Shown: positions 4,487 through 24,473 of the stretch, piece by piece
How positions within the stretch are numbered: the first letter of the stretch is position 1
How the letters are laid out: every line of letters starts with the position of its first letter
Origin: Fidelibacterota bacterium
GTDB lineage: Bacteria > Fidelibacterota > Marinisomatia > SCGC-AAA003-L08 > GCA-002704045
Assembly: GCA_002704045.1 (NCBI GenBank)
Contig: PAFF01000079.1
Span: forward strand, 6,785 to 42,627
Reading direction: 5' to 3'
DNA length: 35,843 nucleotides
The notes under the pieces: generated by a model
Databases searched by the model: none
Seen by the model: only the letters and a program-made list of their open reading frames with translations
What the model was told of the DNA's origin: nothing
Translations under genes and position numbers: made by a program

Positions 4487-7400
4487 TCATTCTAATATTA
4501 AATTAATTATAATGAGAATGTCTAAAATATCAATCAAATTATTTGAATCCATATCAGATATGTTAATTTGAGTACCTGAAAGTAAAATTTGATCAAGAAT
4601 TATATTTACAATCATTACAATATCTGAAATATCTAATGATAAATCACAATTAATATCACCGGAGATTTGTTCTAAGCAAAGTTCAGTTTCTAAAATTTTA
4701 TATATTCCATTTCTTAAGGAATTTGATCTGTAAATATTCCAAGGTAAAATTTGTCCATTTACTTTGATATCAATTATTGATAATCCCTTTGAATCGCCTG
4801 TTATAATTTCTAAATCTTGATCATTATCAATATCATAAATAATAGGTGTATTTTCAATTATTCTGTTCAAATTCATTGGAAAATCATTATATGGATTGCC
4901 ATTTAATTGAAAAACATTTATATCTCCATTTTTTGATGAGAAAATAATTTCAGGTATATTATCAAAATTCAAATCCGCAAAACTACAAGATGATTTAATA
5001 TCTGAATTAATTTCTATTGGCCATCCTGGAATATTATAACCATTAATATCAATTCCATGGACTAAATTATTTTCAGATGTAAAAAAAATATAAGCATTAT
5101 TATTATATTCCAAAATAGATGGACTAGATCTGATAGGATAATCTAAGTTTCTAGTAAATTCAATATCTCCATTTTCATTTATACAATAAAAATCACCATT
5201 ATCATTACCAAAAAATATCAAATATTTTTGATTATTATCAAATGATGCAACGGATGGTGCTGAACGAATGTTATAGCCAGTATTAATTGTGAAATTATCG
5301 TTTAAACTACCATCGTTATTGATTAAATATAGATTTCCACTATCAGTGGAAATTAAAATCTCATCAATGTTATCATTATTTATATCCAAAACAGCTGCAC
5401 CAACCCATATTTTTTCATTAATTTCTAATGGGAAACCATCAACAAGTGTCCCATCGTGATTTATTACAAAAACTTTTCCCAAATTTGACATTGAACCAAT
5501 AACTATTTCTAAGTTTTCATCAGAGTCAAAATTGCCTATGACCGGTGTTGCTGTTAAGAACTGATTTGAATTAAAAGATGCTTCTTGATATCCATCTTTG
5601 TCGATTATATAAATATGCTTACTTTTTGAAGATATAATAAATTCAATTTCTTGATCATTATCAATATCAGCTGCACTAGGTGAGCCCCAAATATCATTTC
5701 CTGTATAAAAAGGTGTTTCCCAAATGTAATTCCCTTCAATATCAATTAAATAAACATATCCATCATTATCACAAAATAAAATACTCGAATTTTCTAAACC
5801 TAAACCAGGCTCTATAAAGAGTGGAGACGAGATAACTTCTTTATTAATATCAATTGGGAAACCATACTGTAATAAATTTATATTAATGTTTATATTAATC
5901 GTTTGTTCAAATGAACTATTTTCTAAATCCCCAAAAATATATAAATCAAAAGAATGAATACCAATTGGTGTATCTGGAGCAACATAAATATTGATAAGAT
6001 TATTAGATTCAACTGATGCAAATTCATATAAAGTTGGATAAGTTATTTCATCGTTGTTCACTGTTATATAGTCATTATTATTTTGTGGTATTGCTATCAA
6101 ATTTGATACAGTTTGGTTTGATGGGTTAAATAGCTCTGTTAAAATTGAGCCCGATTCTCCTGGATTTAAAATTTGATCGTTATCTCCATCAGTTTCTTGA
6201 ACATTGAGGCTATTAATAGTTAGAGTTGGAATATTTCTAAATGTTGCAGAAATAATGTTTTCATTTTGTTCAATATTAACGACACTTACTCCAGAAGGAT
6301 TTCCATTGTTAAAAGTTGAATTAGGTTGGGTATCAAAAGCAAAATTGGTATTATTGAAAGATCCTGGGAATGGATCACCAGGATCACCACTATTAACATT
6401 ATTATTTAGATTATAGAATCCATCTGACTGTTCCAAGTCAACTAATCTGTTCCAATCATTTTGATTATTATTCTGAGATTCATCAACATGCCATATAAGT
6501 AACCCGTGATATGGTAAATTTTGATCATAAAGGATTTTTTGTCTATTTTCAAATAAATAGTATTCACTTGTGTTATTTATTCCATCCATTCTGAGAACTA
6601 TTGGATTTTCTTGAACATTTTCAATATCATATTCAATTATAGGCTCATCTATTGTAATTGGAGTAATCCATCCAAGTTGGTATTTTATCCAAGCAGACAT
6701 ATGGACTGGATACCAGGGAGATCCTCCATTGCCTCCCCAAGATCCACCTGACATTAGACACCAGTTACCAACTCCAGGAGAAGAATAATCAGTATCATAT
6801 AAATCAGGTACTCCTAAAGCATGACCGAATTCATGAGCAAAAACACCAATGTGTACCATCCCGCCAGTACCCATTGTTGTTCTTTCAGGTTGAATTACAT
6901 AATTATTAATAATAACTCCATTACATTCAGTCGCATAATTACCTAATTGCCAAGAATGTGACCATATGTACGAGCTGTTACCTTCTTCAGCGCCGGCACC
7001 AGCATGTACTATATTTAATGCATCTACATATCCATTATTATCATTATCATAAATTGACCAATCAACTCCATTGATGCAGGCTTCATTTACAGCATCACGA
7101 ATCATAGTTCTCACCATATTGTATCCATCAGGTGCACCATCACCATAAACTGTATAACTTTCATTTGCCATATACCATCCCATAACATCTGTAATCGGAC
7201 TAAATTGACCATAGGATACTTCTTGAAAATAATCATAAAAACTACCTGTTTCTCCTTGGGATGATTCATAATTTTCCATATTCATCATATTATTAAATTG
7301 ATTTACTGAATTTATTGAGTTCAGATCTGGAAATTCTATTAATAGCATTGGAATTTTAAATGGCTCTCTAGATAAAGAATTAATTTCTGGTATATTATCT

Positions 7401-7723
7401 AATGGCTTTATTTTTTTTCTATTGGGTTTTATGTATTTTTCTATTTTAGTTAATTGATCGTTTAATTTTTGGTCTACTAAAATATTTGTTAATTCATATG
7501 AGTTATTTTTGAAAGATTTTACATATACCCATTCATTTTTAATATTTTTGGATATAGTATATCCAGTTTTAGTCTCATACCAATTTTGCCATTCATCTCC
7601 TTTTACGTAAGCTGCAAATTTTTCACCATTTGGTTGGGTTAAGGTTATTAGACCTGTGTAAGCAGGAACTGCAAACATATAAGTTGTAAAAATTAATATG
7701 ATTGTTGAACTAATTTTTATCAT
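4487..7723 (-). CDS. secreted M6-family (immune inhibitor A-like) zinc metalloprotease with FG-GAP/VCBS-like repeats and a C-terminal dockerin module
   Basis: This is a 1078-aa ORF with a signal peptide. The HEFGH motif is encoded at 6821-6835, within VFAHEFGHALGVPDLYD, and an IWSHSW block sits upstream, as in InhA/PrtV-type M6 peptidases. The central region has repeated DxDxDxxxE-type loops (DIDNDQEIEF, NFDSDENLEIV, DINNDNIDEIL, DLNFDNIPEII, DIDNDQDLEII), typical of FG-GAP/VCBS beta-propeller repeats. Its ATG overlaps the stop of the upstream S8 gene (ATGA at 7720-7723). Confidence 0.85.
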   Translation of the reverse strand: MIKISSTIILIFTTYMFAVPAYTGLITLTQPNGEKFAAYVKGDEWQNWYETKTGYTISKNIKNEWVYVKSFKNNSYELTNILVDQKLNDQLTKIEKYIKPNRKKIKPLDNIPEINSLSREPFKIPMLLIEFPDLNSINSVNQFNNMMNMENYESSQGETGSFYDYFQEVSYGQFSPITDVMGWYMANESYTVYGDGAPDGYNMVRTMIRDAVNEACINGVDWSIYDNDNNGYVDALNIVHAGAGAEEGNSSYIWSHSWQLGNYATECNGVIINNYVIQPERTTMGTGGMVHIGVFAHEFGHALGVPDLYDTDYSSPGVGNWCLMSGGSWGGNGGSPWYPVHMSAWIKYQLGWITPITIDEPIIEYDIENVQENPIVLRMDGINNTSEYYLFENRQKILYDQNLPYHGLLIWHVDESQNNNQNDWNRLVDLEQSDGFYNLNNNVNSGDPGDPFPGSFNNTNFAFDTQPNSTFNNGNPSGVSVVNIEQNENIISATFRNIPTLTINSLNVQETDGDNDQILNPGESGSILTELFNPSNQTVSNLIAIPQNNNDYITVNNDEITYPTLYEFASVESNNLINIYVAPDTPIGIHSFDLYIFGDLENSSFEQTININININLLQYGFPIDINKEVISSPLFIEPGLGLENSSILFCDNDGYVYLIDIEGNYIWETPFYTGNDIWGSPSAADIDNDQEIEFIISSKSKHIYIIDKDGYQEASFNSNQFLTATPVIGNFDSDENLEIVIGSMSNLGKVFVINHDGTLVDGFPLEINEKIWVGAAVLDINNDNIDEILISTDSGNLYLINNDGSLNDNFTINTGYNIRSAPSVASFDNNQKYLIFFGNDNGDFYCINENGDIEFTRNLDYPIRSSPSILEYNNNAYIFFTSENNLVHGIDINGYNIPGWPIEINSDIKSSCSFADLNFDNIPEIIFSSKNGDINVFQLNGNPYNDFPMNLNRIIENTPIIYDIDNDQDLEIITGDSKGLSIIDIKVNGQILPWNIYRSNSLRNGIYKILETELCLEQISGDINCDLSLDISDIVMIVNIILDQILLSGTQINISDMDSNNLIDILDILIIINLILE
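4490..4660 (-). other. dockerin-type module (two Ca-binding loop/helix repeats) at the C-terminus of the M6 protease
   Basis: The sequence is GDINCDLSLDISDIVMIVNIIL ... SDMDSNNLIDILDILIIINLILE. Both halves fit D-x-[ND]-x-[DN]-x-x-[ILVF]-[DN]-x-x-D followed by a hydrophobic helix, which is the dockerin type I repeat pattern. Confidence 0.75.
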
Positions 7724-9726
7724 TCAATTATTAAATTCAGTAAAACAACGATATCTAATATATCGAAAGTATTATCATCATTTAAATCGGCATTAATATC
7801 TGAATCAGTTGGATCAGTATTATCTAGAATTAGATTAATAACAATCACCACATCAAGTATGTTAACATTATTATCATTGTTTAAATCACCAAAAATAGAA
7901 TCATAAAAAACTGGAAAAGAAAGTGATATATCATTTTTATAAAAAAGGTTATCATTTTCGTTGGATTGAATATTAAAATTTAACATTAATGAATCTTGTT
8001 CAAAATGTGAATCTAGATTTAGGATAAAAGGTAGAGATTCATTTATGGCTGCTTCATCTGAATCAATATTAGGGAAATTTGATATACCATTTATAATATT
8101 TACATTGTTAGATATTGAGTTCATGTTTACAGAAATATTATTTGCATTTCCCCAACCAGCTTCATTGTAAATAACTAAAAATAAATGTAATTCATCACCA
8201 GGACTGATAGTGCCGTCATTATTATTAATAATTTCTAGATCATATCCCATTAATTCGAGTTTAGGGTATAATTCAGTTACAAGAGCTTGTAAAACATCCA
8301 CTCTCCCTGAACCAAGAGTACCTTCTAGATATGTTTCAGAATTGATACTATATATAATTGGATTAGCTGTTTCAATGATCATTGTTGCTAACTGTTCTGA
8401 ACTCCATTCTGATCTGAAAGCTTGTAACAAACCTATACAGCTAGCAACTATGGGAGTAGCCATTGATGTTCCACTCCAAGTTGAATAATTATTTATAACT
8501 GTTGATCGAATATTTTCTCCAGGCGCTGAAATATCAACTGTTTCATGATAATTAGCCCAATGATTCCAATTATCGTTACTACCTAATGCGGTCACCGATA
8601 TGACATTATCATAACTCGATGGATAATGAGTTCCATACAATTCACCGCCGTCACCATTTCCAGCTGCTGCTAAAACAATTGCTTTATATTGATTATGACA
8701 CACATTAATGACATCCTGTTCATAAGCATTATAACCAATTCCACCCCAGCTATTATTAATGATGGCAAAACTACCTGCACCATGACCTGCCTGAGCAGCA
8801 TATAAAATTCCTAAATAACCTTCCGTAATAAAAATTTGTCCTTGTTGACTTTCTCTAGATACCTTTACACTCATAACATTGCTGTTAAATGCAACAGATG
8901 AAATACCTAAATTATTATCAGTTGAAGAATTTAATAAACCAGCGACGTGTGTTCCATGTGACCATCCACCACCATTACCTGGTCTAGGATCATTATCTTG
9001 ATTACCATTGTAGCCAGAACAGTCCCAACCAATTAGATCGTCAATTAAGGTTGCAGGATCATTATCGTGATTATCGTCATCAATTTGATTTAGATCTCCA
9101 GGGTCTAACACCCATTGTCCATTAATATATTCAATAGTATGACCGTCTCCATCTGCATCCTCTCCTAAATTTTGCCAAATATTACCTACTAAATCTGGAT
9201 GGTCCCAATCTACTCCTGTATCAACTGAAGCTAAAATAATATTTGAGTTACCAGGTAGTTCTCCTTGCTGAATATTCCAAAAATCCCAACCTTGATTTGC
9301 ATTTACCTGATCTAAAAACCATTGACTATTGTATTGGGGATCGTTAGGAGTATAAAATGGTATTCTTGGATACACAAGTTCTGCTGAATGAATAAAAGAA
9401 AATTCTTGAATTTCATTAATTAATTCTTTTACATCTTTACGATTATTTACTAAAACTTTATATATTCGATTTAAGTAAACTGAACCAGAATGATCATTTT
9501 CTTTTGCAATTGGAAGCCATTGTTCAAGACTCGATACATTATTGTATTTTAACCAAGAATCCAATTCTGGAATACCAGTTTTAAAAGTATCATCTTTATT
9601 GATTTTTATTAGATTTACATTAGAATTCAAACAAAATAGAAATTGATCTTTTAAAAATCCTTTCTGATTTGATAAAAGTAGATTAACGAAAATTGTAAAA
9701 TATATTATTTTTAAAAAATGATTCAT
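7720..9726 (-). CDS. secreted subtilisin-like serine protease (peptidase S8) with a C-terminal dockerin module
   Basis: This is a 668-aa ORF with a signal peptide. The catalytic triad motifs are DTGVDWDHPDL (Asp), HGTHVAG (His) and GTSMATP (Ser). The C-terminal region carries a dockerin duplication. Confidence 0.9.
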   Translation of the reverse strand: MNHFLKIIYFTIFVNLLLSNQKGFLKDQFLFCLNSNVNLIKINKDDTFKTGIPELDSWLKYNNVSSLEQWLPIAKENDHSGSVYLNRIYKVLVNNRKDVKELINEIQEFSFIHSAELVYPRIPFYTPNDPQYNSQWFLDQVNANQGWDFWNIQQGELPGNSNIILASVDTGVDWDHPDLVGNIWQNLGEDADGDGHTIEYINGQWVLDPGDLNQIDDDNHDNDPATLIDDLIGWDCSGYNGNQDNDPRPGNGGGWSHGTHVAGLLNSSTDNNLGISSVAFNSNVMSVKVSRESQQGQIFITEGYLGILYAAQAGHGAGSFAIINNSWGGIGYNAYEQDVINVCHNQYKAIVLAAAGNGDGGELYGTHYPSSYDNVISVTALGSNDNWNHWANYHETVDISAPGENIRSTVINNYSTWSGTSMATPIVASCIGLLQAFRSEWSSEQLATMIIETANPIIYSINSETYLEGTLGSGRVDVLQALVTELYPKLELMGYDLEIINNNDGTISPGDELHLFLVIYNEAGWGNANNISVNMNSISNNVNIINGISNFPNIDSDEAAINESLPFILNLDSHFEQDSLMLNFNIQSNENDNLFYKNDISLSFPVFYDSIFGDLNNDNNVNILDVVIVINLILDNTDPTDSDINADLNDDNTFDILDIVVLLNLIIE
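7723..7890 (-). other. dockerin-type module at the C-terminus of the S8 protease
   Basis: The sequence is GDLNNDNNVNILDVVIVINLIL ... ADLNDDNTFDILDIVVLLNLIIE, giving two 12-residue Ca-loop motifs, each followed by a hydrophobic helix. Confidence 0.75.
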
Positions 9727-9918
9727 TTAATTTGTTTGTTTATAATTATTGATTCATCTAAAAGTTAATATTTATTAGTTGTTCAACTCTATATCAAATT
9801 GTAACAATTACAAAAGATTTTTTTTTTGAATTTAAATGAATAATCTTTTTAAATTATTCAACGTTCGTTTAAGTAAGATTTAATTTTAACATAACATAAA
9901 AAAAGAGAGGTAAATCAA

Positions 9919-10485: not shown

Positions 10486-10507
10486 GTTTAATATAAACTT
10501 TTATTAT

Positions 10508-10539
10508 AAAAAAGCCCCATTTAATATGGGGTTTTTTTT
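10508..10539 (+). terminator. rho-independent terminator
   Basis: The hairpin CCCCAT/ATGGGG is flanked by an A-run and a T8 run. Confidence 0.7.
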
Positions 10540-13294: not shown

Positions 13295-14584
13295 ATGAAT
13301 TCAAAAATTAAAAATATAAATACATTTACCAGGGAAGTTTCTGTTAATGTTCCTTGGGACAATTTAAAAGATGATTTTAAAAAATGTTTTTTTGATTTTA
13401 AAAAAGGTTACAGTATGCCAGGTTTTAGAAAAGGTAAAGTTCCTGATTCAATAGTAAAAAAAAATTATGGTCCTGCAATTGAAGCTGATTTTACAGAAAA
13501 ATCAATTAATAAATTTTATCAAATTTCTCTACAAGAATTAAAGCTAATTCCAATTAATAAAGCAGAAATAAAAAATTTAGAGTTTAAAGAAGGTGACAAT
13601 TTAAAATTTAAAGCAGTTTTTGAAGTCACACCCGACTTTAAAATACCGGACTACAAAAAAAAATACAAAATAAATGCCGTTAGAGTAAACCAAACAGAAA
13701 ATGATTTGAATGAAGCATTGATTTCTGTTCAAAAACAACACGGAAATGTAAAATCTGTTGATGATGGCGCAAAAATTGGCCATTATATTCAAGGAGATTT
13801 TCAAGAATTAGACGAATCAGATTTACCAATCATTGGAAAAAAATATGATAAACAATATATATGTTACGGGGAAGGTGTTTTTAGTGGACCAGGAGTATTG
13901 CAACTCGAAGGTGTAAAAGCAAATGAGTCTGTAAAAGTCAATATTGATTATGGAGATAATAAAAAAGTTAGATATGAAATTAAAGTAAATAGAGTTGATG
14001 AACAAGTATTGCCAGAATTAGACGATAAGTTGGCATCTTTAGCTAACCCAGAAACCAAAACATTAGATGAACTTAAAAATAAACTCAAAGATTCAATTCA
14101 AGAATCTTTAGACAGAGAATATAATAATCAGATTGATCAAAATATATCTAGATATTTAGTTGATAAAACTAAAATTGAAATTCCAATTTCAATGAGAAAA
14201 AATTATTTAGATAATGTAATTGAAGATTTAAAACAAAAAAATAAAGAAAATAAACCAATTATTAGGGAAGAAATTGAAAAAGCTTATAAAGATATAGCTG
14301 ATTGGAATATATCTTGGTATCTCATTAAAGAAAAATTAATAAAAGAAAATGAAATACAAGTTTCAAATGAAGATATTGAAAAAAAAATTAATCAAGCAGC
14401 CTCAAATAGTAAGTTAGATGTCAAACAGGTAAATGAATTTTATTCAAAACCAGAAAATAGAAACAAAATTGAAGATGATCTTTATAATGAAAAACTTTTT
14501 AAACATTTGAAAGAATTTGCTAATATTAAAGAAACAATTAAAACTACAGATCAAATCAAAAAAGAAAGAGAAAAAAATGGATAA
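13295..14584 (+). CDS. tig: trigger factor
   Basis: This is a 429-aa ORF. The N-terminal ribosome-binding signature GFRKGKVP is present. The overall length and the position directly upstream of clpP match the conserved tig-clpP synteny. Confidence 0.88.
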
Positions 14585-15182: not shown

Positions 15183-15206
15183 GAACAATAAGAATAATTT
15201 AGTATA

Positions 15207-15235
15207 AAACGGGACAATTTAAGGTCCCGTTTTTA
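15207..15235 (+). terminator. rho-independent terminator after clpP
   Basis: The hairpin AAACGGGAC/GTCCCGTTT is followed by Ts. Confidence 0.7.
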
Positions 15236-15242
15236 ATATAAT

Positions 15243-17219
15243 ATGAAAAAACTATTTTTAATATTCTTTACTCCAATATTATTATTTTGTCAAAATCTTA
15301 TTGTCATTGGAGATTCAAATTATAATGATTTAGATTATATTTCTTCTAGCTTGAATATTAATAATATGCAGCATCGTATATGGGATGACTATAGTAGCCA
15401 AGTTTTAGTTGATAGTATAATGCAATTAAATGATTCAATAGTATTATTTCAAATTGAATCATATTTAGATAGTACTATTGTAAATACTTTAGAAAACAAG
15501 GTAAACGATAACAATATTTTCTTAGTATTCTCTAACAAAATTGAAAATGATGATAATATGAATGATTTTTTTGGATTTATAAAAGTTAGAGATGGTTTAT
15601 CTGAATCAATCATGAATCTTGAAGATAATAGAGTTTGGAATTTTAATGAAAGTGAAACGATCTCTGAACTTAGTTGGATTGGAACAGCAGAACCTATATC
15701 GGTATTTTCTGAAACAAGTTCGTTTTCAATGATACAAAAAAAATATTCAATGGGATTAGTTTCAATAGCAGGTTTCAATTTATATAGCATTCAAGAATTG
15801 TCTAGTTACCTACAAGTTTTAATTAATACTGTTTCATCAATTTATAATCAAATTATAATTGAAGATGTTTCTGGTTATCCTGGAGACACATTGTATATTC
15901 CTATAAATTCTAACTTTGTTGATGATATTATAGGGTTATCGTTTTCAATTCAATCTGACCCTGAATATTTAGATTTTATTATTATTGAAAATGACTCTTC
16001 TAACAATAATTTTGAATGGGAAATTAGTCAATTACCATTTGGTATAGTTGAAATTAATGGAGCTGCAAACAGTGGTGTTCTTGAAAGTGGTCATAACAAT
16101 GTGGGTTTTTTAAAAGCAGTATTATATCCATCTGCTGCAAATAAAATTTCTTTAAGAGGATTAGAAAGCATCATAACTTATGAGTCAGGAGAATCTTTTC
16201 AAGGTTCATTTATAAATGGTGAAATTGACGTTTTTTACAATAGTCCAATCATTCATTTGAAAGCACCAAATTTGATCGAACCAGATTCATCAGGCACTAT
16301 GGAAATTCATTTGAATACAAATCATAATATTAGTGCAATACAATTATGTCTCAATTATAACTCTGATATACTAGATATTGAAAATATTTTATCAACAGAA
16401 AATATACCTGAAAATTGGTTTTTCTCGTACGTAAATAATAGTTCAAATAACAATGTAGAAATTTTTTGTTTTGGATTTGATCCTATTAGCACAGTGAGTG
16501 GAAAAATATTTGATGTTAAACTTAAATCATTGAATAGTTATGAACAACAAACATCAATATATTTTTGTGATATACTATTAGCTAGTGTCGATAATGAAAA
16601 TATTATTCCAATAAGTATCCCGACAGATATTTTAATTAGCTTTCCTGATCTAAGTATTCTTCCAAAAAAAATAATACAAAACAATAACCTAGATATATTG
16701 TACTATACAAATAATTTTCAAAATATTACCGGTTTTCAATTTGATTTGTTTTTTCAAGGTAATATAAATATAATTGAAACTTTTAATGGGAATATTGCAA
16801 AAAATTATTTTGGTAATTGGATTGCATTGAACGATACATCAGCAAGATTTATATACTTTGACAATAATCAACCTATTGATTCTAAAGTAATAGGTTATTT
16901 ATTAAATACCTCATTTCAAACTTATGAAAATACAGTTCAAAATGAATTTTACTTTGATGTAGAAAATATTATACTGACAAATCAAAATTATGAACCTCTA
17001 AAAGTAATATTTAATGATTTTATAATTGAAAACAATTCAACGATTATTGGTGATGTTAATGGTGATAATTTTATTGATATTTTAGATGTTTTAATCATTG
17101 TTGATTATATTACATGGAATTTGCAATTTGGTTATGCACAATCAAGTGTATCAGACTTAAATAATGATAATAATATTAATATTGAAGATATTTTGTTAAT
17201 TGTAAGTGATATTTTGTAA
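15243..17219 (+). CDS. secreted protein with three cohesin-like modules and a C-terminal dockerin (adaptor-scaffoldin-like)
   Basis: This is a 658-aa ORF with a signal peptide. Three modules of about 115-130 aa lie at roughly nt 15852-16235, 16248-16643 and 16686-17033. Each has the cohesin-like layout: an [enzyme-facing] start such as IIIEDVSGYPGDTLYIPIN, a strand such as IIGLSFSIQSDPEYLDF, ISAIQLCLNYNSDILDI or ITGFQFDLFFQGNINI, and a later GxxxxV/F strand. The assignment is by eye only. Confidence 0.7.
   Translation: MKKLFLIFFTPILLFCQNLIVIGDSNYNDLDYISSSLNINNMQHRIWDDYSSQVLVDSIMQLNDSIVLFQIESYLDSTIVNTLENKVNDNNIFLVFSNKIENDDNMNDFFGFIKVRDGLSESIMNLEDNRVWNFNESETISELSWIGTAEPISVFSETSSFSMIQKKYSMGLVSIAGFNLYSIQELSSYLQVLINTVSSIYNQIIIEDVSGYPGDTLYIPINSNFVDDIIGLSFSIQSDPEYLDFIIIENDSSNNNFEWEISQLPFGIVEINGAANSGVLESGHNNVGFLKAVLYPSAANKISLRGLESIITYESGESFQGSFINGEIDVFYNSPIIHLKAPNLIEPDSSGTMEIHLNTNHNISAIQLCLNYNSDILDIENILSTENIPENWFFSYVNNSSNNNVEIFCFGFDPISTVSGKIFDVKLKSLNSYEQQTSIYFCDILLASVDNENIIPISIPTDILISFPDLSILPKKIIQNNNLDILYYTNNFQNITGFQFDLFFQGNINIIETFNGNIAKNYFGNWIALNDTSARFIYFDNNQPIDSKVIGYLLNTSFQTYENTVQNEFYFDVENIILTNQNYEPLKVIFNDFIIENNSTIIGDVNGDNFIDILDVLIIVDYITWNLQFGYAQSSVSDLNNDNNINIEDILLIVSDIL
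17049..17216 (+). other. dockerin-type module at the C-terminus of the cohesin-like protein
   Basis: The sequence is GDVNGDNFIDILDVLIIVDYI ... SDLNNDNNINIEDILLIVSDIL, giving two Ca-loop/helix repeats. Confidence 0.75.
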
Positions 17220-17390: not shown

Positions 17391-20300
17391 ATGCTCAGTT
17401 ATAAAAGTAAAATTATTAAAATGATATTCATTTTGACATTCATATCGAATGTATTTTCACAAGATGTAATATTAAATTTGGATGATGGTAGTCTAAATTA
17501 TACTAGCTCAGTTGAAATAGCTGGGTTTCAATTTGACCATAATGGATGTGTTGAGAATGCATCAGGTGGAGATGCTGCATCAAATGGATTTACGGTTTCA
17601 GCAAGTAGTTCCACAGTTTTAGCGTTTTCATTCTCTGGAGCTGTTATTCCATCTGGTGAAGGTACGCTTATTGAATTAGTAGGAACAATAACTGATACTT
17701 GCTTGAGTAATTTTGTTTTTTCTGGTTCTGGCGGGACATCACTTATTGTAGAATTTGGGAATAATACCCCACCACCTTGTGATGATATTGATAGTGATGA
17801 TATATGTGACGACATAGATGATTGTGTGGGTAACTATGATGAATGCGGTATATGCAATGGAGATGGAATAGCTGAAGCAGAATGTGATTGTGATGGTAAT
17901 GTTGTAGATATATGCGGTGAATGTGGTGGAGATGGTTCAAGTTGTATTGTAGAATTAAACTTTGGTGACTTTGGTGATGGTAGTATGGATATTATAATGT
18001 CAAGTAGTGTTGATGTAGCAGGCTTCCAATTTGATATATCTGGTGTAAATTTAATAGGTTCATCGGGTGGTAGTGCAAATGCTAATGGCTTTACAGTTTC
18101 ATCTAGTTCATCAACAGTATTAGGATTTAGTTTTAGCAGTAGTACAATTCCTGCTGGTGATGGTGTTCTTATAACGTTGAATTATGAAGCAACATCATTA
18201 AATGCTTGTTTTGATAATATAGTAATTTCAGGTTTAGGTGGTGTTTCACTTGAAACTTCTGCTGGAGATTGTATTACAGTTGGTGAACCATCTACAGTAA
18301 GCGTTCTCTATGATAGTATAGAAGATATCGCTGGTTTTCAATTTGGAGTAGAGGAAGGTGTTACTCTTTTGGGAGTCTCAGGCGGTGATGCGGCTGCTAA
18401 TGGATTTACCGTTACTGCTAGCGCATCAACTGTTTTAGGTTTTTCATTTTCGGGTTCAGTTATCCCTTCAGGTAGTGGTGTTTTAGTTGATCTTTTGGTT
18501 GATGATCCTTCAGCTCTTTGTTTAACAAATTTGGTGATTTCAGGTGAAGGTGGCGCATCTCTTGAAGCTTTTGTTGATGGTTGCAATACAATAGTTTATT
18601 CAGGTTGCACTGATGAAGACTCGGATAGTATTTGTGATAGTGAAGATGAGTGTATTGGTGAGTATGACGAATGTGGAGTATGTAATGGTGATGGTATAGC
18701 GGATGGATCTTGTGATTGTAACGATAATATAGAGGATTGTTCTGGTGTATGTGGTGGAGATGCTGTTGAAGATGAATGTGGAGTATGTAATGGTGATGGT
18801 CCAGATGAATACTATGATTGTGATGGAAACTGTTTAAATGATGAAGATGGTGATTTAGTTTGTGATGAATTAGATGATTGTATAGGTGAATATGATGAAT
18901 GTGAAATATGCAATGGTAATGGCTCAAGTTGTGCAGATCCAGATGTTACCTTAAGTTTAGATGGTGGGAATTTAAACTATGTAAGTTCTGTAGATATAGC
19001 AGGTTTTCAGTTTAATCATAATGGATGTGTTGTAAGTGCAACAGGTGGAGATGCCATAGCAAATGGATTTACGGTTTCAGCAAGTGGTTCTACTGTTTTA
19101 GGTTTTTCGTTTTCTGGAAGTGTCATCCCATCAGGTGAAGGTACATTAATTGAATTATCAGGAGACATAGTTGATGATTGCTTAAGTAGTTTTGTATTTT
19201 CTGGTACAAGTGGTACTTCACTTATTGTAGAATTTATAATTGGTATTGATAGTTATTATAATGTTGATTTAGTTGAAACTGGAAACTATCAATTAGTAAT
19301 TTTTCAATCATCCATTTCATTATTTGATTTGGGTGATGAAATTGGTGTTTTTGATGCAAATGGAATTTTAGAATCTTGCGATCCTTCATCTGGATGTATT
19401 GAACCATCGTACGGTGAGATTTTAGTAGGTTCTGGAATATGGGTAGGTTCGCAAATGGAAATTTCTGCAATAATGTCAGAGGATTTTTCAGATTTTGGTG
19501 GTTCCATATTAAATGGTGCGATTGATGGAAATCCATTACTAATTAAGGTATGGAAAGTAGCAGAGCAAACAGAATATATTGCTATTGCTACTTGGTCAGC
19601 AGGTGGTGGAGATTTTGGTGATTTAATTCTTGCAGTATCTGAACTTGAACTTGTTGGAGGTTCAGTTTTAGGATGTACAGATCCAAATGCGTGTAATTAT
19701 AATCCTGATGCTACTGAAGATGATGGAAGTTGTTTAGAGGAAGACTGTTTAGGACAATGCGGTGGAGATGCGGTTGTTGATGAATGTGGAGTATGTGATG
19801 GTGATGGTATAGCAGATGGAGCGTGTGATTGTGATGGTAATATAGAGGATTGTGCTGGAGAATGTGGTGGAGATGCAGTTATTGATGATTGTGGAGAATG
19901 TGGTGGAGATGGTTCAAGTTGTTCAGGTCCAGATGTTTATTTAACTCTTGATGGCGGTGATCTAAATTATACAAGTTCAGTAGATATAGCAGGTTTTCAA
20001 TTTAGTCATAATGGATGTGTTGAAAGTGCTGGTGGAGGAGATGCTGCATCAAATGGATTTACAGTTTCTTCAGGTGGTTCTACTATTTTAGCATTTTCAT
20101 TTTCTGGAAATGTTATTCCAGCAGGAGAGGGCACGCTGATTGAATTAGGAGGTGTTATAACAGATGACTGTTTGTTTGAGTTCATTTTTTCAGGAGAAGG
20201 TGGTATAACATTAGATGTAGAATTTTATTCTCCCCCTTGCGATGATATAGATAGTGATGAAATATGTGATGATGTAGATGATTGTGTTGGTGATTATGAT

Positions 20301-23300
20301 GAATGTGGAGTTTGTAATGGTAATGGAACGTCCTGCCCTGATACACCTCAGAACCTAGTGGCAACAGGAGATCTAAACCAAATAATATTAAATTGGTCAC
20401 CTGCTCAAGCTTCATTGAACCAAACTAATAATATTGATAGAGATACATGTGATCCAATTACTGGTTGGTGCTATACATTGAGTATAGAAAATTCTTATTA
20501 CATGTTTGAAAATATATACATAAATAATCAATTAATTCATGAAGGTTCTGTTACTGCCCCAACATCTTGTCCAAATTTAGATTGTGATGTCATAGGAGCT
20601 ATTTGTAATGATAATTTAGTTTCGTGGACATATCCTTTTTTCAATAGTGTATTTACTATACCAGTGATGGGACAAAGTGGTGTTACTCCTAATACTGAAG
20701 AATATTGTGGTAATGGACAAGTACCTTCTTTTGTTGTATTTGATATTTCATCGGGACAGGTTATTAATCTTGAATATATTGGAAACGACTCTATACCTGG
20801 GTTTACGAGTCTTCAAACTTATATGTTTGGTGAAGATTTTGATTATGATGGGTTTTTAAATGCATCGATTGAAATTTCATATAATGTTTACAGGGATGGA
20901 TTGCTTTATGCTGAAGGAATTCAAGAGACTACGTTCATTGATCAAAACCTTGAAGATAATGAATACCACTGTTATCAAGTAACTCAATTTGTAGGTGACC
21001 AAGAATCAGGATTTTCAAATCAGTCTTGTGCAACAACAGATATGCCAGGATGTACAAATATTGAAGCCTGTAATTATAACCCTGAAGCAACAATAGATGA
21101 TGGAAGTTGTTTAGAGGAAGACTGTTTAGGAGAATGTGGTGGTGACGCGGTGATTGATGATTGTGGTGTATGTGATGGTAACAACGATGATCAGGATTGT
21201 TTTGGTGAATGTGGTGGAGATGCAGAATTAGATGATTGTGGTGTATGTGATGGAGATGGTTTAACTTGTTATGCTAAAATCATCGTTGATTCACCATTAA
21301 CTGGATATATATCTTATAATGGAAAAGTAACAATTGTTATTAATGATGAACAATCAGAAATCAATTTAGATGATTCAGTTGAAGTTTTTATTGACAACTT
21401 TTCTGTTAAAAAAATACTTTATCAGGATATTTCAGATGATAATAGCTTTGAGGTTAATATAAAATATTTGTGGGATCATTTTATAAGTTTAGAAAGTGTT
21501 AATTTAAAATTGGTTGTATTAGATCCAACAGGAGAACCTTATACAAATAATGATGCAACTTTAGAAATTAATAATATTCAAGTTAGTCCTCCTTCAAATT
21601 TTGTAATAAATGGTGTTCAAGATACCTTATCAGTATTTACTTATTACATTAATAATGCTATTTACGAAAGTTATAGTTTAACTGAAGATGATTGGATAGG
21701 CTTTTTCTGTAATAATGAAGAAAATGGATTAAATATCATTGGCACTCAAAAGTGGGGATATATAAATCCAGAAGAATATCTTGAAATATTAGAAATAGAA
21801 ATTGATGAAAATTGGTGTCAATCAGAAGATGGCTTATGTACTTGGTCAAGGTTAAGATTATATCAGGATATAGTTGATAATGGGTCATGTGATATAGGAG
21901 ATACTTTATCAATTCAAATGTACATAGCTGAAAATGATAGTATTTTTCCTGCTATAACTCAAAATGAATATTTATTAGGCGAAAATAATATTTATATTGA
22001 TGATATTTGGGCAAATGTAGAGGATTGTAATGGTGTTGCCGGTGGTACAGCATTTTATGATGAATGTGACATATGTTCAGGAGGAGATACTGGTATAATT
22101 CCTAATGATACATTAGATTGTAATGGTGATTGTGATGGCTTAGCTCTAATAGATGATTGTGGAATATGTTGTGATGGAAATACATCTATTGAATGTTCAA
22201 CCTATAACAATGATGGAGACATTCCTGTGGTTACTGGTGTTATGGATTGCAATAATCATTGCCCAGGTGATTCTGATTATGGTATTGAATTTCCAGATTG
22301 TCAAGGAGATTGCTTTGGTGATGCTTATCTTGATGAATGTGAGATATGTGATTATGATTCTAATAATAATAATGAAACTTGCAGTGGTTGTATAGATCCT
22401 CTTGCTAATAATACTGATGAAGACGCAACATTAGATGATGGAAGTTGTACATATGACGTTCAAGTGGCTATTAATGAGTTTTTTTATAGAGCTACAATTA
22501 ATGTAGATATTCCAGATTATGTTGAGATTATTAACGTTACTCAAGAAACAAAAGATCTTAATAATTGGACAATTGAAACAAGTTCAGGAGATCATAATCT
22601 TAGTCAATATAATATTGAATTTTTACCACAAAGTTTAATTTTGATTACAGGTTCAGGTAATTTTTATGATTCTTTAGGAAATATAGTCAACCTTAACAAT
22701 AGGTATGTTATTCCTGGTTTTTCATTATCCTCTTATGATGACTACATTATTTTAAGAGACTCTGAAAATGATATTGTAGATGAGGTGATATATAGTGATG
22801 ATGATGTTTGGCCTGTTGGAAATTCTAACAGGGGGCATGCTCTAGAACTTAATAATTTTTATTATGATAATAATGATGTAGAATATTGGTTTTCAGCTGA
22901 TGAGAGCGTAATGAGTCCTTACATGTATAATTCAGATGGTGAACTTGAAAATTATGGAACACCTTTAGAAAATAATAGTAATTATATAGGTAATGAAATC
23001 GGTTGTGATGGAGTACTATTTAGTGATGCAACATTAGATGATTGTGATGTATGTGATGGAAATAATCTTTATAATATTATAGGAAATTCATCTAGTGGTT
23101 GGAATTGTGGTGAAAATTATGAAAATTGTGATGAAGTGGATTGTGAAGGAGACTGCATTGAAGGCACCCCAAATTGGGATTTAGGTGAGGATATTTTACC
23201 TGATTGTAATGGAATCTGTTTTGGTGATGCAGAATTTGATGATTGTGGTTTATGCGGGGGAGATAATTCAACTTGTTCAGATTGCGCAGGAATACCAAAC

Positions 23301-24473
23301 GGAGATACAGTAGTGGACGAATGTGGTCTATGTGATGGAGATAATTATAATTGTGAAGATCCTGACTCTTCATGTTTGTGTGCAGGTTGTATGGATAACA
23401 CTCCTGGTTTGGCACCTGATATATATGGATGTTGTGCTGATCAAGTATGGAATCCTAATGAAAGCATTTGTCAAGATGGAACTTCAGTAAATGAAGAAGG
23501 GTATTGTTTGGAAAACAATGGATACTACTTTACAAATTATGACCCATTAATACTGATAGATAACGGATCTTGTTCAACGTGGAATCCTGAAATTATTTCA
23601 ATAATCGATATCCCTGAAGATCAAGGATATCATGTTTATTTAACTTTCTCTAAAGCTCATTTTGATGATGAATCTTTGCCAAGAGAAACTGCGGGTTATT
23701 CAATTGAAAGATTAGATAATATTGAAGGTATTCAAACTTGGGTGAATGTAGCTTCAGGATTTGCTTATGGGCAACTTGAATATACTTATGAGGTTGAAAC
23801 TTTGATAAATTACATAGACAGTCTTAGTAATGGTAATACCACATTCAGAGTTATTGCATCTATGGATGAAGGATTATATTTGTCAGATGAATTTTCAGGT
23901 TTTTCTATTGATAATATAATTCCAAGTTCTCCAACTGGAATTAACATTTTAATTATTGATAACAATATAAATTTAAATTGGAATCAAAACCAGGATATTG
24001 ATTTAGATTACTATAATATTTATTATAAATATGTTGATGAAGAAGAGTGGAATTATGATGGTAGTACAAATCAAACAAATTATAATTTGGATTATGATTC
24101 TGATCTGGTAACTGAAATATTTATAACAGCAGTAGATATAAATGATAATGAAAGTGAAAGTTCTCAAATAGTTTCTACATTAGGACTAGCTGCAAATATA
24201 AATTTACCAAAAAGTTTTGAGATATTTGGTAGCTATCCTAATCCATTTAATCCAATAACAAATATAAGTTATTCTATCCCAAGTTCTGATTTAGTACAAG
24301 TTTCAGTTTATAATATCAATGGGATTTTAGTGAAAATAATATATGATGGAATCCAACAATCAGGCTTACATAATATTAAATGGGATGCTAACCTTTATGC
24401 ATCAGGAATTTATTTTATAAAAATCCATTACAAAAACAAGGTTGAGATTCAAAAAGTACTCTTATTAAAATAG
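17391..24473 (+). CDS. giant modular cell-surface protein (2360 aa) with five cohesin-like AGFQF modules, Cys-rich modules, a lamin-tail domain, FN3-like domains and a T9SS C-terminal sorting domain
   Basis: A single uninterrupted ORF with a signal peptide. It has five ~100-aa AGFQF modules. These are interspersed with Asp/Cys-rich modules such as [16 protein letters not shown] and [DE]ECG[VI]C[ND]G[DN]G. The [21 protein letters not shown] motif occurs three times. An LTD-like region lies at about nt 22458-22895 (VAINEFFY...DYVEIINVT...LNNWTIE...[17 protein letters not shown]). FN3-like segments are present ([37 protein letters not shown]...YYNIYYKY). The protein ends in a Por-type CTD. Confidence 0.85.
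   Translation: [2360 protein letters not shown]
17463..17756 (+). repeat. AGFQF (cohesin-like) module 1 of the giant protein
   Basis: Covers aa 25-122: [62 protein letters not shown]...SLIVEF. Similarity to modules 4 and 5 is also visible at the DNA level. Confidence 0.8.
17946..18275 (+). repeat. AGFQF module 2 (divergent)
   Basis: Covers aa 186-295: [57 protein letters not shown]. Confidence 0.7.
18291..18584 (+). repeat. AGFQF module 3 (divergent)
   Basis: Covers aa 301-398: [58 protein letters not shown]. Confidence 0.7.
18939..19235 (+). repeat. AGFQF module 4
   Basis: Covers aa 517-615: [62 protein letters not shown]...SLIVEF. Confidence 0.8.
19929..20225 (+). repeat. AGFQF module 5
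   Basis: Covers aa 847-945: [62 protein letters not shown]...TLDVEF. The downstream Cys/Asp linker (20235-20330) also repeats the linker that follows module 1 (17775-17870). Confidence 0.8.
24216..24470 (+). other. T9SS (Por) C-terminal sorting domain of the giant protein
   Basis: The last 85 aa are [22 protein letters not shown]...[14 protein letters not shown]...GLHNIKWDA...[24 protein letters not shown]. They match the YPNPF...x-Y-x-[LVI]...G-x-Y-F pattern of Por_Secre_tail-type CTDs. They align residue for residue with the tail of the 30536..34420 product. Confidence 0.8.

What the first reader, a model, noticed from the sequence alone, without database searches (positions are those of the whole stretch)
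4487..24473. Dockerin-tagged proteases clustered with cohesin-like scaffold proteins, one of them T9SS-anchored: candidate cell-surface protease assembly
**Seen in the sequence.**
- Three proteins within 13 kb end in a duplicated 12-residue Ca-loop (D-x-N-x-D-x-x-[ILVF]-[ND]-x-x-D) followed by a hydrophobic helix, which is the dockerin pattern.
- Two of the three are proteases encoded by an overlapping (ATGA) operon: an M6 peptidase with HEFGH and an S8 subtilase with the full D/H/S triad.
- The third (15243..17219) also carries three cohesin-like modules, like an adaptor scaffoldin.
- The adjacent 2360-aa protein carries five related AGFQF modules. It has no dockerin and ends in a Por/T9SS CTD, like an anchoring scaffoldin.

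**Established knowledge.**
- In clostridial cellulosomes, dockerin-bearing enzymes plug into the cohesins of scaffoldins.
- Adaptor scaffoldins carry both module types.
- T9SS CTD cargo is typically attached to the cell surface.
- Non-cellulosomal cohesin and dockerin modules are known to be widespread, but their partners are mostly uncharacterised.

**Inference.**
- This locus may encode a hierarchical, cellulosome-style complex in a diderm. It would display proteases rather than glycoside hydrolases.
- The dockerin proteases have Sec signal peptides but no T9SS CTD, so their route across the outer membrane is unexplained.
Basis: partly seen in the sequence, partly recalled or inferred. Interest (0 to 1): 0.85.

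Follow-up and report, generated by a model that had tools for sequence, protein, structure and literature searches.

The report
Marine bacterium's dockerin proteases and cohesin scaffolds
An uncultured marine SAR406/Marinimicrobia bacterium encodes two proteases with dockerin tags beside two scaffold-like proteins built of cohesin and cohesin-like modules, one of which carries the signal for export to the cell surface. Together they look like a protein-digesting counterpart of the cellulosome, an idea already proposed from genomes in two other phyla and never tested in any.

Summary
- The window is a Tara Oceans scaffold. It is 91% identical at the adaptor protein to a Candidatus Neomarinimicrobiota genome (SAR406, now Fidelibacterota).
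- Three proteins end in type I dockerins: an M6 metalloprotease, an S8 subtilase and a 658-aa adaptor.
- The adaptor's three internal modules fold as true cohesins.
- The five AGFQF modules of the 2360-aa protein with a type IX secretion (T9SS) sorting domain are missed by Pfam Cohesin. They fold with high confidence as a compact nine-strand beta-sandwich whose best solved match is a cohesin. An intermediate family member matches both my AGFQF profile and Pfam Cohesin.
- The module family is large: 2,906 representative proteins, with up to 13 copies each. Eight of ten long members checked end in a T9SS sorting domain.

The adaptor and giant protein stay adjacent in relatives only 39% identical; the proteases do not. 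Other marine contigs carry dockerins on C25, C10 and probably M14 peptidases, once about 4 kb from an AGFQF protein and once together with a T9SS sorting domain.

No binding was tested. The export route of the sorting-domain-less proteins is unexplained. Similar protease-displaying complexes were predicted for Planctomycetes (2019) and Cloacimonadota (2021). I file this as a new variant of a known kind, of moderate to high interest.

The parts
7720..9726 (-). S8 subtilase, 668 aa. Sec signal peptide, catalytic domain at aa 161-454 (nt 8365-9246), C-terminal type I dockerin at aa 611-668 (nt 7723-7896). No T9SS sorting domain.
   Evidence: - Peptidase_S8 scores 138.3 bits and Dockerin_1 27.4 bits, above the 22.9 cut-off.
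- Asp, His and Ser motifs lie at aa 168, 257 and 419.
- Ca-loops lie at aa 614 and 647.
4487..7723 (-). M6 metalloprotease, 1078 aa. Sec signal peptide, M6 domain at aa 124-412 with HEFGH at aa 297 (nt 6821-6835), FG-GAP-type beta-propeller at aa ~640-1000, C-terminal dockerin at aa 1020-1078 (nt 4490-4666). Overlaps the S8 gene by ATGA.
   Evidence: - TIGR03296 scores 216.9 bits against a cut-off of 110.8.
- Peptidase_M6 scores 80.4 bits and FG-GAP_3 33 bits. Dockerin_1 scores 16.8 bits, below the cut-off.
- The lineage-specific dockerin profile scores 66.4 bits.
- The overlap is shown.
15243..17219 (+). Adaptor-like protein 'ScaA', 658 aa. Signal peptide; unknown alpha/beta domain at aa 17-198 (nt 15291-15836); three cohesins at aa 199-334, 335-468 and 469-598 (nt 15837-16244, 16245-16646, 16647-17036); dockerin at aa 601-658 (nt 17043-17216).
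   Evidence: - Pfam Cohesin scores 33.5 bits (cut-off 24.1) and Dockerin_1 28.0 bits.
- The AlphaFold model has pLDDT 73.7.
- Foldseek's top hit is the cohesin dyad 3l8q (E=1.6e-13). Single cohesins match at TM-score 0.72-0.77 on the target's length.
- Twelve homologues share the same architecture.
17391..24473 (+). Giant surface protein 'Big', 2360 aa. Signal peptide; five AGFQF cohesin-like modules; Cys/Asp-rich CGxCxG linkers; a domain at aa 620-765 that also exists as a stand-alone lipoprotein in relatives; lamin tail domain at aa 1691-1801 (nt 22461-22793); T9SS type A sorting domain at aa 2282-2356 (nt 24234-24458).
   Evidence: - Por_Secre_tail scores 35.1 bits and the lamin tail domain (LTD) 33.8 bits.
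- TIGR04183 scores 36.7 bits.
- Module positions come, the domain map.
17454..17768 (+). AGFQF module 1 of Big, the one that was modelled.
   Evidence: - The AlphaFold model has pLDDT 94.3 and nine strands.
- Foldseek's top hit is cohesin 2xdh: E=8e-4, TM-score 0.57 on the query's length.
17982..18263 (+). AGFQF module 2 of Big.
   Evidence: The AGFQF profile scores 94.7 bits.
18297..18575 (+). AGFQF module 3 of Big.
   Evidence: The AGFQF profile scores 102.9 bits.
18942..19238 (+). AGFQF module 4 of Big.
   Evidence: The AGFQF profile scores 150.6 bits.
19932..20228 (+). AGFQF module 5 of Big.
   Evidence: The AGFQF profile scores 147.2 bits.
13295..15182 (+). Housekeeping genes tig and clpP, directly upstream of ScaA. 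They are context, not part of the assembly. Their position next to the scaffold genes is conserved.
   Evidence: - The Trigger_N, Trigger_C and CLP_protease annotations come.
- The same order is seen in L006, L010, L013 and L014.

Best explanation
The locus belongs to an uncultured marine SAR406/Marinimicrobia (Fidelibacterota) bacterium. It encodes parts of a cohesin-dockerin docking system that probably displays peptidases on the cell surface.

**Shown**
- Big carries a T9SS type A sorting domain and five compact cohesin-like (AGFQF) modules.
- ScaA carries three canonical cohesin folds and its own dockerin.
- The co-transcribed-looking M6 and S8 genes encode catalytically intact proteases that end in near-symmetric type I dockerins.

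**Inferred**
- Big is exported by the T9SS and held on the outer membrane.
- ScaA's dockerin has a conserved G-x-AQ linker motif that the enzyme dockerins lack. I infer that it plugs into an AGFQF module.
- The protease dockerins plug, in a Ca-dependent way, into ScaA's cohesins, into AGFQF modules directly, or into both.
- The result would be a multi-protease surface array for degrading proteinaceous marine particles close to the cell's transporters.
- Other peptidase families with dockerins (C25, C10, M14) would use the same docking system in related genomes.
For: **Domains.** Dockerin motifs are far above chance.

**ScaA cohesins.** Foldseek gives E=1.6e-13 to cohesin dyad 3l8q, and TM-score 0.72-0.77 with rmsd about 3 A to five different solved cohesins.

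**AGFQF modules as cohesin relatives.**
- The model has pLDDT 94.3 and nine strands.
- Its best PDB hits by probability and TM-score are cohesins: 2xdh, 6kgc_A and 4dh2.
- Family member P0294 scores 35.4 bits on Pfam Cohesin, above the cut-off. The matched stretch (aa 935-1015) lies inside an AGFQF-profile domain at aa 933-1038.
- MAFFT and hhalign align ScaA cohesin 3 (ITGFQFD) with the AGFQF module.

**Surface location.** Eight of ten long AGFQF proteins end in Por_Secre_tail.

**Functional linkage.**
- The ScaA-Big adjacency, plus a further AGFQF/T9SS protein, is kept at 39% identity in L006 and L010.
- On an independent 1.03-Mb contig, three dockerin-bearing genes lie about 4 kb upstream of a six-module AGFQF protein with a T9SS sorting domain. 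Two have Pfam-confirmed dockerins (a C25 peptidase and a partial protein). The third, an M14 peptidase, has a dockerin found only by my own profile.
- A C25 peptidase carries both Dockerin_1 (27.9 bits) and Por_Secre_tail (39.4 bits), so dockerins in this group are exported.

**Two dockerin types.** The linker motif difference is seen.
Against: - No cohesin-dockerin interface was predicted or measured.
- None of 69 AGFQF modules hits Pfam Cohesin at E<=1. Profile-profile similarity to ScaA cohesin 3 is weak: E=0.0019, probability 14%.
- Fold similarity of the AGFQF module to cohesins is moderate, with TM-score 0.53-0.57. CBM2 domains also appear among the hits.
- The proteases are not syntenic with ScaA-Big in L006 or L010. 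tig and clpP separate them in the window.
- AGFQF proteins exist with no dockerin gene within 10 kb (L013) and alongside unrelated domains such as cupredoxin and DUF4397 (L015).
- M6, S8 and ScaA lack a T9SS sorting domain, so their passage across the outer membrane is unexplained.
- No T9SS machinery gene lies in the window.
Confidence: 0.5

Rival explanations
1. AGFQF modules are structural or adhesive beta-sandwich repeats of giant T9SS surface proteins, like the Ig-like repeats of other T9SS adhesins. They are not dockerin receptors. Any cohesin-dockerin pairing is limited to the enzymes and ScaA's three canonical cohesins, giving a small soluble or periplasmic complex that Big does not anchor.
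For: - The modules occur in up to 13 copies per protein, in 2,906 representative proteins, next to varied domains: cupredoxin, DUF4397, Cleaved_Adhesin and the lamin tail domain.
- L013 has an 11-module protein with no dockerin gene within 10 kb.
- The window's modules give no Pfam Cohesin hit.
- Fold similarity to cohesins is only moderate.
Against: - The best structural matches are cohesins, not Ig or Fn3 domains.
- P0294 bridges the family to Pfam Cohesin by sequence.
- ScaA sits beside AGFQF proteins across deep divergence. ScaA's dockerin needs a partner.
- Dockerin peptidases lie next to an AGFQF protein in a lineage with no ScaA gene in view.
Confidence: 0.22
2. The C-terminal dockerin-like tags do not bind cohesins here. 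They act as Ca-binding stabilisers, or they bind another ligand such as glycan, lipopolysaccharide or an outer-membrane protein. The neighbourhood with cohesin proteins is then incidental.
For: - From established knowledge: many non-cellulosomal dockerins have no identified partner (Peer et al. 2009, cited in PMC8542988; the paper itself could not be read).
- The proteases are not syntenic with ScaA-Big in distant relatives.
- The dockerin search returned 187 hits at E<=1, and all 120 listed are fragments of 114 aa or less, most on contigs of a few kb, so their gene context is not visible.
Against: - The same genomes invest heavily in cohesin and cohesin-like modules.
- ScaA combines cohesins and a dockerin in one protein, the hallmark of an adaptor.
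- Dockerin peptidases recur near AGFQF proteins in two independent lineages.
- Both repeats of each dockerin keep the full Ca-loop plus helix pattern.
Confidence: 0.15
3. The assembly exists, but it forms in the periplasm or on outer-membrane vesicles rather than on the cell surface. On this reading M6, S8 and ScaA never cross the outer membrane by themselves.
For: - All three have only Sec signal peptides and no T9SS sorting domain.
- No other secretion system is encoded in the window.
Against: - Big and other AGFQF proteins carry T9SS sorting domains.
- A related C25 peptidase has a dockerin followed by a T9SS sorting domain, which implies that dockerins act outside the cell.
- From established knowledge: free periplasmic broad-specificity proteases would be hazardous to the cell.
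Confidence: 0.1

Closest known systems
Clostridial cellulosomes with adaptor and anchoring scaffoldins (for example Acetivibrio cellulolyticus ScaA/ScaB/ScaC, C. thermocellum CipA/OlpB)
   Same: - Enzymes end in type I dockerins with two Ca-loop repeats.
- A non-catalytic protein carries several cohesins plus its own dockerin, like an adaptor.
- A second multi-module protein carries a cell-surface anchoring signal.
- ScaA's model matches the A. cellulolyticus ScaA cohesin dyad best.
   Different: - The host is an FCB-group bacterium, inferred to have two membranes, not a Gram-positive clostridium.
- The anchor signal is a T9SS sorting domain instead of SLH domains or sortase.
- The cargo seen is peptidases (M6, S8; C25, C10 and M14 in relatives), not glycoside hydrolases.
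- No CBM3 was found.
- The anchoring protein's modules are a compact, roughly 100-aa cohesin-like family that Pfam Cohesin misses.
Predicted cellulosome-like complex of Cloacimonadota 'Ca. Stygibacter' (Williams et al. 2021, PMC8542988)
   Same: - The host is also an FCB-group bacterium.
- It has dockerin-tagged S8 and C25 peptidases.
- It has a large non-catalytic scaffoldin with tandem cohesins and a C-terminal T9SS-type sorting domain.
- It was proposed to degrade polypeptides, and it is a genome-only inference.
   Different: - That scaffoldin has Pfam-recognisable cohesins plus CBM2/CBM3, and the cargo includes GH18 and GH57.
- No cohesin-plus-dockerin adaptor is mentioned in the passages I read.
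- Here there is an adaptor, no CBM was found, and the anchoring modules belong to the divergent AGFQF family.
- The phylum and habitat differ: open-ocean SAR406.
'Planctosome' of freshwater Planctomycetes (Andrei et al. 2019, PMC6461901)
   Same: - It is a hypothetical peptide-degrading cohesin-dockerin complex in a bacterium outside the clostridia.
- Its anchoring protein of about 2,200 aa has a lamin tail domain, thrombospondin-type Cys/Asp repeats and a cohesin.
- Its adaptor has a dockerin plus a cohesin.
- Its cargo is dockerin-bearing Zn peptidases.
   Different: - It has no T9SS sorting domain; anchoring was ascribed to the lamin tail domain.
- The peptidase families differ (M12B, M14).
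- It has single cohesins rather than arrays.
Non-cellulosomal cohesin of Archaeoglobus fulgidus (PDB 2xdh)
   Same: It is the best structural match of the AGFQF module: E=8e-4, probability 1.00, TM-score 0.57 on the query's length.
   Different: - Sequence identity is 15%.
- It has 138 residues against about 100 for the AGFQF module.
- It is an archaeal protein that is not part of a repeat array.
Ruminococcus bromii amylosome (PMC4611034, listed)
   Same: It is a precedent for cohesin-dockerin assemblies that organise enzymes other than cellulases.
   Different: - The host is a Gram-positive gut bacterium.
- The cargo is amylases.
- It has been demonstrated experimentally.

Membership tests
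Type I dockerin (Pfam PF00404) | Two tandem repeats of about 22 residues, each a 12-residue Ca-binding loop followed by a helix | tested here: met
   - Each of the three proteins has two loops followed by hydrophobic helices at its C-terminus.
- The ScaA model shows helices at aa 613-623, 631-637 and 647-657.
Type I dockerin (Pfam PF00404) | Profile score at or above the curated cut-off of 22.9 bits | tested here: met
   - S8 scores 27.4 bits and ScaA 28.0 bits.
- M6 scores only 16.8 bits, so it is not met for M6 by Pfam alone.
- The lineage profile gives M6 66.4 bits.
Type I dockerin (Pfam PF00404) | Ca-dependent binding to a cohesin | not testable with these tools
Cohesin (Pfam PF00963): ScaA modules | Nine-strand beta-sandwich jelly-roll that superposes on solved cohesins, plus a profile match | tested here: met
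   - Pfam scores 33.5 bits against a cut-off of 24.1.
- Foldseek gives TM-score 0.72-0.77 on the target's length and rmsd 2.8-3.3 A to 1g1k, 2vn5, 4dh2, 6kgc and 5nrm.
Cohesin (Pfam PF00963): AGFQF modules of Big | Profile match to PF00963 | tested here: not met
   - There is no Cohesin hit for Big.
- None of 69 family members hits at E<=1.
- Only divergent members of the wider family reach the cut-off, for example P0294 at 35.4 bits summed over its modules.
Cohesin (Pfam PF00963): AGFQF modules of Big | Cohesin-type fold | tested here: inconclusive
   - The model has pLDDT 94.3 and nine strands.
- The top PDB hits are cohesins, but TM-score is only 0.53-0.57 and rmsd about 5-6 A.
- CBM2 domains also appear, with lower TM-scores.
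- The module is about 100 aa against about 140 aa for a cohesin.
Cohesin (Pfam PF00963): AGFQF modules of Big | Binds a dockerin | not testable with these tools
   The evidence is indirect only: synteny with ScaA and proximity to dockerin peptidases.
T9SS type A cargo | Sec signal peptide plus a C-terminal Por_Secre_tail / TIGR04183 domain above the cut-off | tested here: met
   - Big scores 35.1 bits on PF18962 (cut-off 27) and 36.7 bits on TIGR04183 (cut-off 23).
- The N-terminal signal peptide is visible.
T9SS type A cargo | The genome encodes the T9SS machinery (PorK/L/M/N, SprA/Sov, PorU/V) | not tested
   - No such gene lies in the window.
- The rest of the genome could not be scanned.
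- A second protein with the sorting domain in the window (30536-34420) suggests that the system is in use.
Cellulosome in the strict sense | Dockerin-bearing glycoside hydrolases and a cellulose-binding CBM on the scaffoldin | tested here: not met
   No glycoside hydrolase or CBM family was detected in any of the nine proteins scanned. The cargo is peptidases.
M6 (immune inhibitor A) metallopeptidase | M6 catalytic domain with an intact HExxH | tested here: met
   TIGR03296 scores 216.9 bits. HEFGH lies at aa 297.
S8 subtilase | Asp/His/Ser triad in subtilisin order | tested here: met
   PF00082 scores 138.3 bits. The motifs lie at aa 168, 257 and 419.

The most novel reading that the evidence does not exclude
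The dockerin proteins that lack a T9SS sorting domain (M6, S8, ScaA) fold in the periplasm and dock there onto the cohesin or AGFQF modules of cargo that carries the sorting domain. They are then carried across the outer membrane with that cargo by the T9SS. Cohesin-dockerin pairing would then act as a cargo-recruitment ('hitch-hiking') mechanism for type IX secretion as well as a surface scaffold. The AGFQF family, with 2,906 representative proteins, would be the ocean-wide receptor set for it.
Probability: 0.1. Interest if true: 0.85.

Novelty: new variant of a known kind. Interest (0 to 1): 0.6.

Why it matters
**Ecology.** SAR406/Marinimicrobia is among the most abundant uncultured bacterial groups of the dark and oxygen-poor ocean (my own knowledge). 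How it attacks particulate protein is poorly understood. A surface-anchored, modular protease array would give a concrete mechanism for particle-attached proteolysis without losing the enzymes to diffusion.

**Reach of the docking principle.** It would extend cohesin-dockerin assembly from Gram-positive plant-fibre degraders to bacteria that use the T9SS.

**An unannotated domain family.** The AGFQF module is a compact cohesin-like domain that current Pfam models miss. It occurs in 2,906 representative proteins in the exhaustive search. Genome surveys that rely on PF00963 will therefore undercount scaffoldin-like proteins in marine FCB bacteria.

**A testable secretion question.** The mismatch between dockerin cargo without a sorting domain and T9SS-anchored scaffolds makes cargo selection in type IX secretion open to direct experiment.

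Tried and rejected
1. **Pseudo-complex prediction.**
   - I tried to translate straight through the ScaA-Big intergenic region, since both genes are in the same frame, to get a natural dockerin-linker-module chain.
   - No interface test was therefore possible.
2. **Profile-profile comparison of the AGFQF family with ScaA modules.**
   - The full-length run gave nothing, and one run used a wrong global-mode flag.
   - The local-mode run gave only a weak hit to cohesin 3: E=0.0019, probability 14%.
   - Even ScaA's own three modules barely match each other by sequence.
3. **AGFQF profile against PDB sequences.** Only a non-significant hit to an R. flavefaciens cohesin (E=1.1).
4. **Dockerin-profile homologue search, meant to list the cargo repertoire.** The 120 best hits listed are all fragments of 114 aa or less, so it gave little beyond a GH18 and two FG-GAP fragments.
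5. **Promoter and terminator scan.**
   - Promoter-like sites were fewer than in shuffles in this AT-rich DNA.
   - No terminator-like site lies in the intergenic gaps between clpP, ScaA, Big and the next gene. That is weak evidence for co-transcription.
6. **ScaA N-terminal domain against PDB sequences.** No match.
7. **CBM2 reading of the AGFQF module.** Considered and set aside. CBM2 hits have lower TM-scores (0.35-0.38) than cohesins (0.50-0.57).
8. **Phage or mobile-element origin.** Considered and rejected. The genes sit among tig, clpP, tRNA genes and a P-type ATPase, with synteny conserved across relatives.
Full report
**Origin and context**

The window has about 28% G+C. It lies on Tara Oceans scaffold TARA_SAMEA2591122 scaffold_680, where all the genes discussed here were also called.

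A scan of one genome per GTDB species found only three relatives of the 15243-17219 protein. The closest, at 91% identity, is 'Candidatus Neomarinimicrobiota bacterium isolate EAC11'. That name now maps to phylum Fidelibacterota in the FCB group, formerly Marinimicrobia or SAR406. Named hits of the AGFQF module are also Candidatus Marinimicrobia.

**Check of the observation**

- *Dockerin loops.* Six dockerin Ca-loop motifs occur in the six-frame translation. They fall as three pairs at the extreme C-termini of three proteins. Residue-shuffled proteins give 0.2.
- *Pfam Dockerin_1.* It passes its cut-off for the S8 protein (27.4 bits) and for the adaptor (28.0 bits). The M6 protein scores 16.8 bits, below the cut-off. 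A profile of this lineage's dockerins scores the M6 tail at 66 bits.
- *Proteases.* The two protease genes overlap by ATGA. M6 has HEFGH and a full TIGR03296 domain at 216.9 bits. S8 has its Asp, His and Ser motifs.
- *Giant protein.* The 2360-aa protein has exactly five AGFQF modules, no dockerin and a T9SS type A sorting domain above both curated cut-offs.

There are two corrections.
- Three acidic lipoprotein genes and the housekeeping genes tig and clpP sit between the protease operon and the scaffold genes.
- Pfam Cohesin does not see the AGFQF modules.

**The adaptor ('ScaA')**
- Pfam Cohesin scores 33.5 bits against a cut-off of 24.1.
- An AlphaFold2 model built on 13 homologues has mean pLDDT 73.7. 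It shows an alpha/beta N-terminal domain, three all-beta modules and a three-helix C-terminus.
- Foldseek against the PDB ranks the type II cohesin dyad of Acetivibrio cellulolyticus ScaA first (E=1.6e-13).
- Foldseek also superposes single modules on five different solved cohesins, with TM-score 0.72-0.77 on the target's length and rmsd about 3 A. These are genuine cohesins.
- The family is narrow: 12 homologues at 39-91% identity, and all but one truncated entry show the same full-length architecture.
- ScaA-type dockerins share a G-x-AQ motif in the inter-repeat linker that the two protease dockerins lack. This hints at two binding specificities.

**The AGFQF modules**

By sequence they are not a Pfam family. 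None of 69 members hits Cohesin at E<=1. A profile search of PDB sequences gives only E=1.1 to a Ruminococcus cohesin.

By structure they resemble cohesins.
- Module 1, modelled on a 69-sequence alignment, folds with pLDDT 94.3 into a nine-strand beta-sandwich.
- Its best PDB match is the non-cellulosomal cohesin of Archaeoglobus fulgidus (2xdh: E=8e-4, probability 1.00, TM-score 0.57).
- Further cohesins match at TM-score 0.50-0.55. CBM2 domains match only at 0.35-0.38.

Two sequence bridges support common ancestry with cohesins.
- ScaA's third cohesin carries ITGFQFD. Both MAFFT and hhalign place it on the AGFQF module along its whole length.
- The exhaustive profile search picked up P0294. 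Pfam Cohesin passes its cut-off on that protein (35.4 bits), and its best stretch (aa 935-1015) lies inside an AGFQF-profile domain at aa 933-1038.

I therefore read AGFQF as a compact, divergent cohesin-like family of about 100 residues. It works like a cohesin only by inference.

The family is large.
- It has 2,906 representative proteins at E<=0.001 and 1,866 at E<=1e-10.
- Proteins carry up to 13 modules and reach 4,996 aa.
- Eight of ten long members end in Por_Secre_tail.

**Conservation of the neighbourhood**
- *Distant relatives with ScaA.* In L006/L007 and L010, ScaA is 39% identical. The gene order is tig, clpP, a T9SS protein with three AGFQF modules, ScaA, a 171-aa lipoprotein and a Big orthologue. 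The L010 Big orthologue is 2038 aa, with YGFQFD modules, two lamin tail domains and a T9SS sorting domain. The ScaA-AGFQF pairing is therefore conserved.
- *Proteases in those relatives.* The protease genes are not conserved there. Upstream lie TPR and beta-helix genes.
- *Relative without ScaA.* In L013 the order is tig, clpP, clpX and then an 11-module AGFQF giant. There is no ScaA and no dockerin within 10 kb.
- *Close relative.* L014, on a 1.24-Mb contig, repeats the window's layout, including the S8-dockerin gene.

**Dockerin peptidases elsewhere**

A 1.03-Mb contig from another sample carries two relevant loci.
- *L012.* Three dockerin-bearing genes lie about 4 kb upstream of a frameshifted six-module AGFQF protein with a T9SS sorting domain.
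  - One is a partial protein (Dockerin_1 32.9 bits).
  - One is a C25 peptidase (Dockerin_1 35.7 bits).
  - The third is an M14 carboxypeptidase. Its C-terminal dockerin is detected by my profile at 38.6 bits but not by Pfam.
- *L011.* This locus holds three peptidase genes.
  - A C25 peptidase carries both Dockerin_1 (27.9 bits) and Por_Secre_tail (39.4 bits).
  - A C10 peptidase has an FG-GAP propeller and a dockerin (23.4 bits), the same layout as the window's M6 protein.
  - A further C25 gene is followed by a dockerin fragment.

L015 holds one protein with an AGFQF module, a dockerin (19.8 bits, below the cut-off) and a T9SS sorting domain.

Tagging peptidases of several families with dockerins is thus a recurrent trait of these marine bacteria. 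At least some of these dockerins are exported by the T9SS.

**Most likely mechanism (inference, confidence about 0.5)**
- Big is secreted and retained on the outer membrane through its T9SS sorting domain.
- ScaA docks onto an AGFQF module through its distinct dockerin.
- M6 and S8 dock onto ScaA's cohesins, onto AGFQF modules, or both, in a Ca-dependent way.
- The product is a surface protease array.

The domain identities, fold assignments and synteny are shown. Every binding step and the cellular location are inferred.

The main weak points are these.
- No interface could be tested.
- AGFQF modules also occur where no dockerin gene is nearby.
- M6, S8 and ScaA have Sec signal peptides but no T9SS sorting domain.

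**Comparison with what is known**

The architecture parallels adaptor and anchoring scaffoldins of clostridial cellulosomes. It fails the strict cellulosome definition, because no glycoside hydrolase or CBM was found.

Two genome-based papers have proposed the same concept.
- The 'planctosome' of freshwater Planctomycetes has an anchor with a lamin tail domain, thrombospondin repeats and a cohesin, an adaptor with a dockerin and a cohesin, and dockerin Zn-peptidases (PMC6461901).
- The complex proposed for Cloacimonadota 'Ca. Stygibacter' has dockerin S8 and C25 peptidases plus a 3,755-aa scaffoldin with a sorting domain and tandem cohesins (PMC8542988).

No paper in the searchable library combines Marinimicrobia, SAR406 or Fidelibacterota with dockerin or cohesin.

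What is new here:
- the phylum, an abundant ocean clade;
- the adaptor-plus-anchor hierarchy;
- the large cohesin-like AGFQF family that Pfam misses;
- the evidence that a dockerin and a T9SS sorting domain can coexist in one peptidase.

**Verdict**

This is a new variant of a known but experimentally unproven kind. Interest is 0.6.

Noticed in passing
window 9919-10485, 10686-11540, 11649-13163 (+): Three consecutive lipoproteins (lipobox LVGC or VIGC) lie between the protease operon and tig. They are very acidic and Cys-rich, and two share a C-terminal motif (…CEANGSAEGA.DGVW…). None has a Pfam or NCBIfam match. Equivalents are present in L008 and L014.
   Followed up: partly
window 14517-15243; L013 6714-9847: clpX is missing after tig and clpP in the window, and ScaA sits in that slot. 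In L013 the order is tig, clpP, clpX and then an AGFQF giant protein with no ScaA. The tig-clpP neighbourhood is therefore a conserved home for these surface-protein genes.
   Followed up: partly
window 19248-19685 (Big aa 620-765); L006 11943-12458: A domain of about 145 aa (…LVIFQSSIS…GDEIGVFD…) inside Big recurs as a stand-alone 171-aa lipoprotein between the ScaA and Big orthologues in L006 and L010. It also recurs inside the 1108-aa AGFQF protein. It has no family match.
   Followed up: no
window 15291-15836 (ScaA aa 17-198): The N-terminal alpha/beta domain of ScaA is conserved in all full-length homologues. It has no Pfam hit and no PDB sequence match, and part of it is modelled poorly (pLDDT below 50 at aa 114-161).
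   Followed up: partly
L011 3-2354; L015 13646-15340: One gingipain-like C25 peptidase carries both a dockerin and a T9SS sorting domain. Another protein combines an AGFQF module, a dockerin-like segment and a T9SS sorting domain. Once the sorting domain is removed, the dockerin would lie near the new C-terminus.
   Followed up: yes
L011 3417-5762: A C10 (streptopain-like) peptidase has an FG-GAP beta-propeller and a C-terminal dockerin, and follows an I69 inhibitor gene. It has the same peptidase-propeller-dockerin layout as the window's M6 protein.
   Followed up: partly
window 30536-34420 (+): A second T9SS cargo protein of 1294 aa (Por_Secre_tail 43.3 bits) has no other recognisable domain.
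   Followed up: no
window 2180-4363 (-); L016 27-2573: A heavy-metal P-type ATPase lies directly beside the dockerin end of the M6 gene. The same dockerin-ATPase adjacency is seen on an independent 122-kb contig.
   Followed up: partly
window 18460-18927 (-): This 155-aa His-rich ORF lies antisense to the G-rich part of Big, where GC skew reaches +0.43. It is almost certainly not a gene.
   Followed up: no
window 370-442 and 25316-25399 (+): tRNA-Glu(ttc) and tRNA-Leu(tag) are present. The latter closes the run ScaA, Big and an outer-membrane beta-barrel gene (24484-25251). No terminator-like site lies in the intergenic gaps of that run.
   Followed up: partly
window 26632-28203 (+): A lipoprotein-like protein combines MORN-type repeats with two FKBP peptidyl-prolyl isomerase domains. 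It may be a periplasmic folding helper, and it lies downstream of a patatin-like gene.
   Followed up: no
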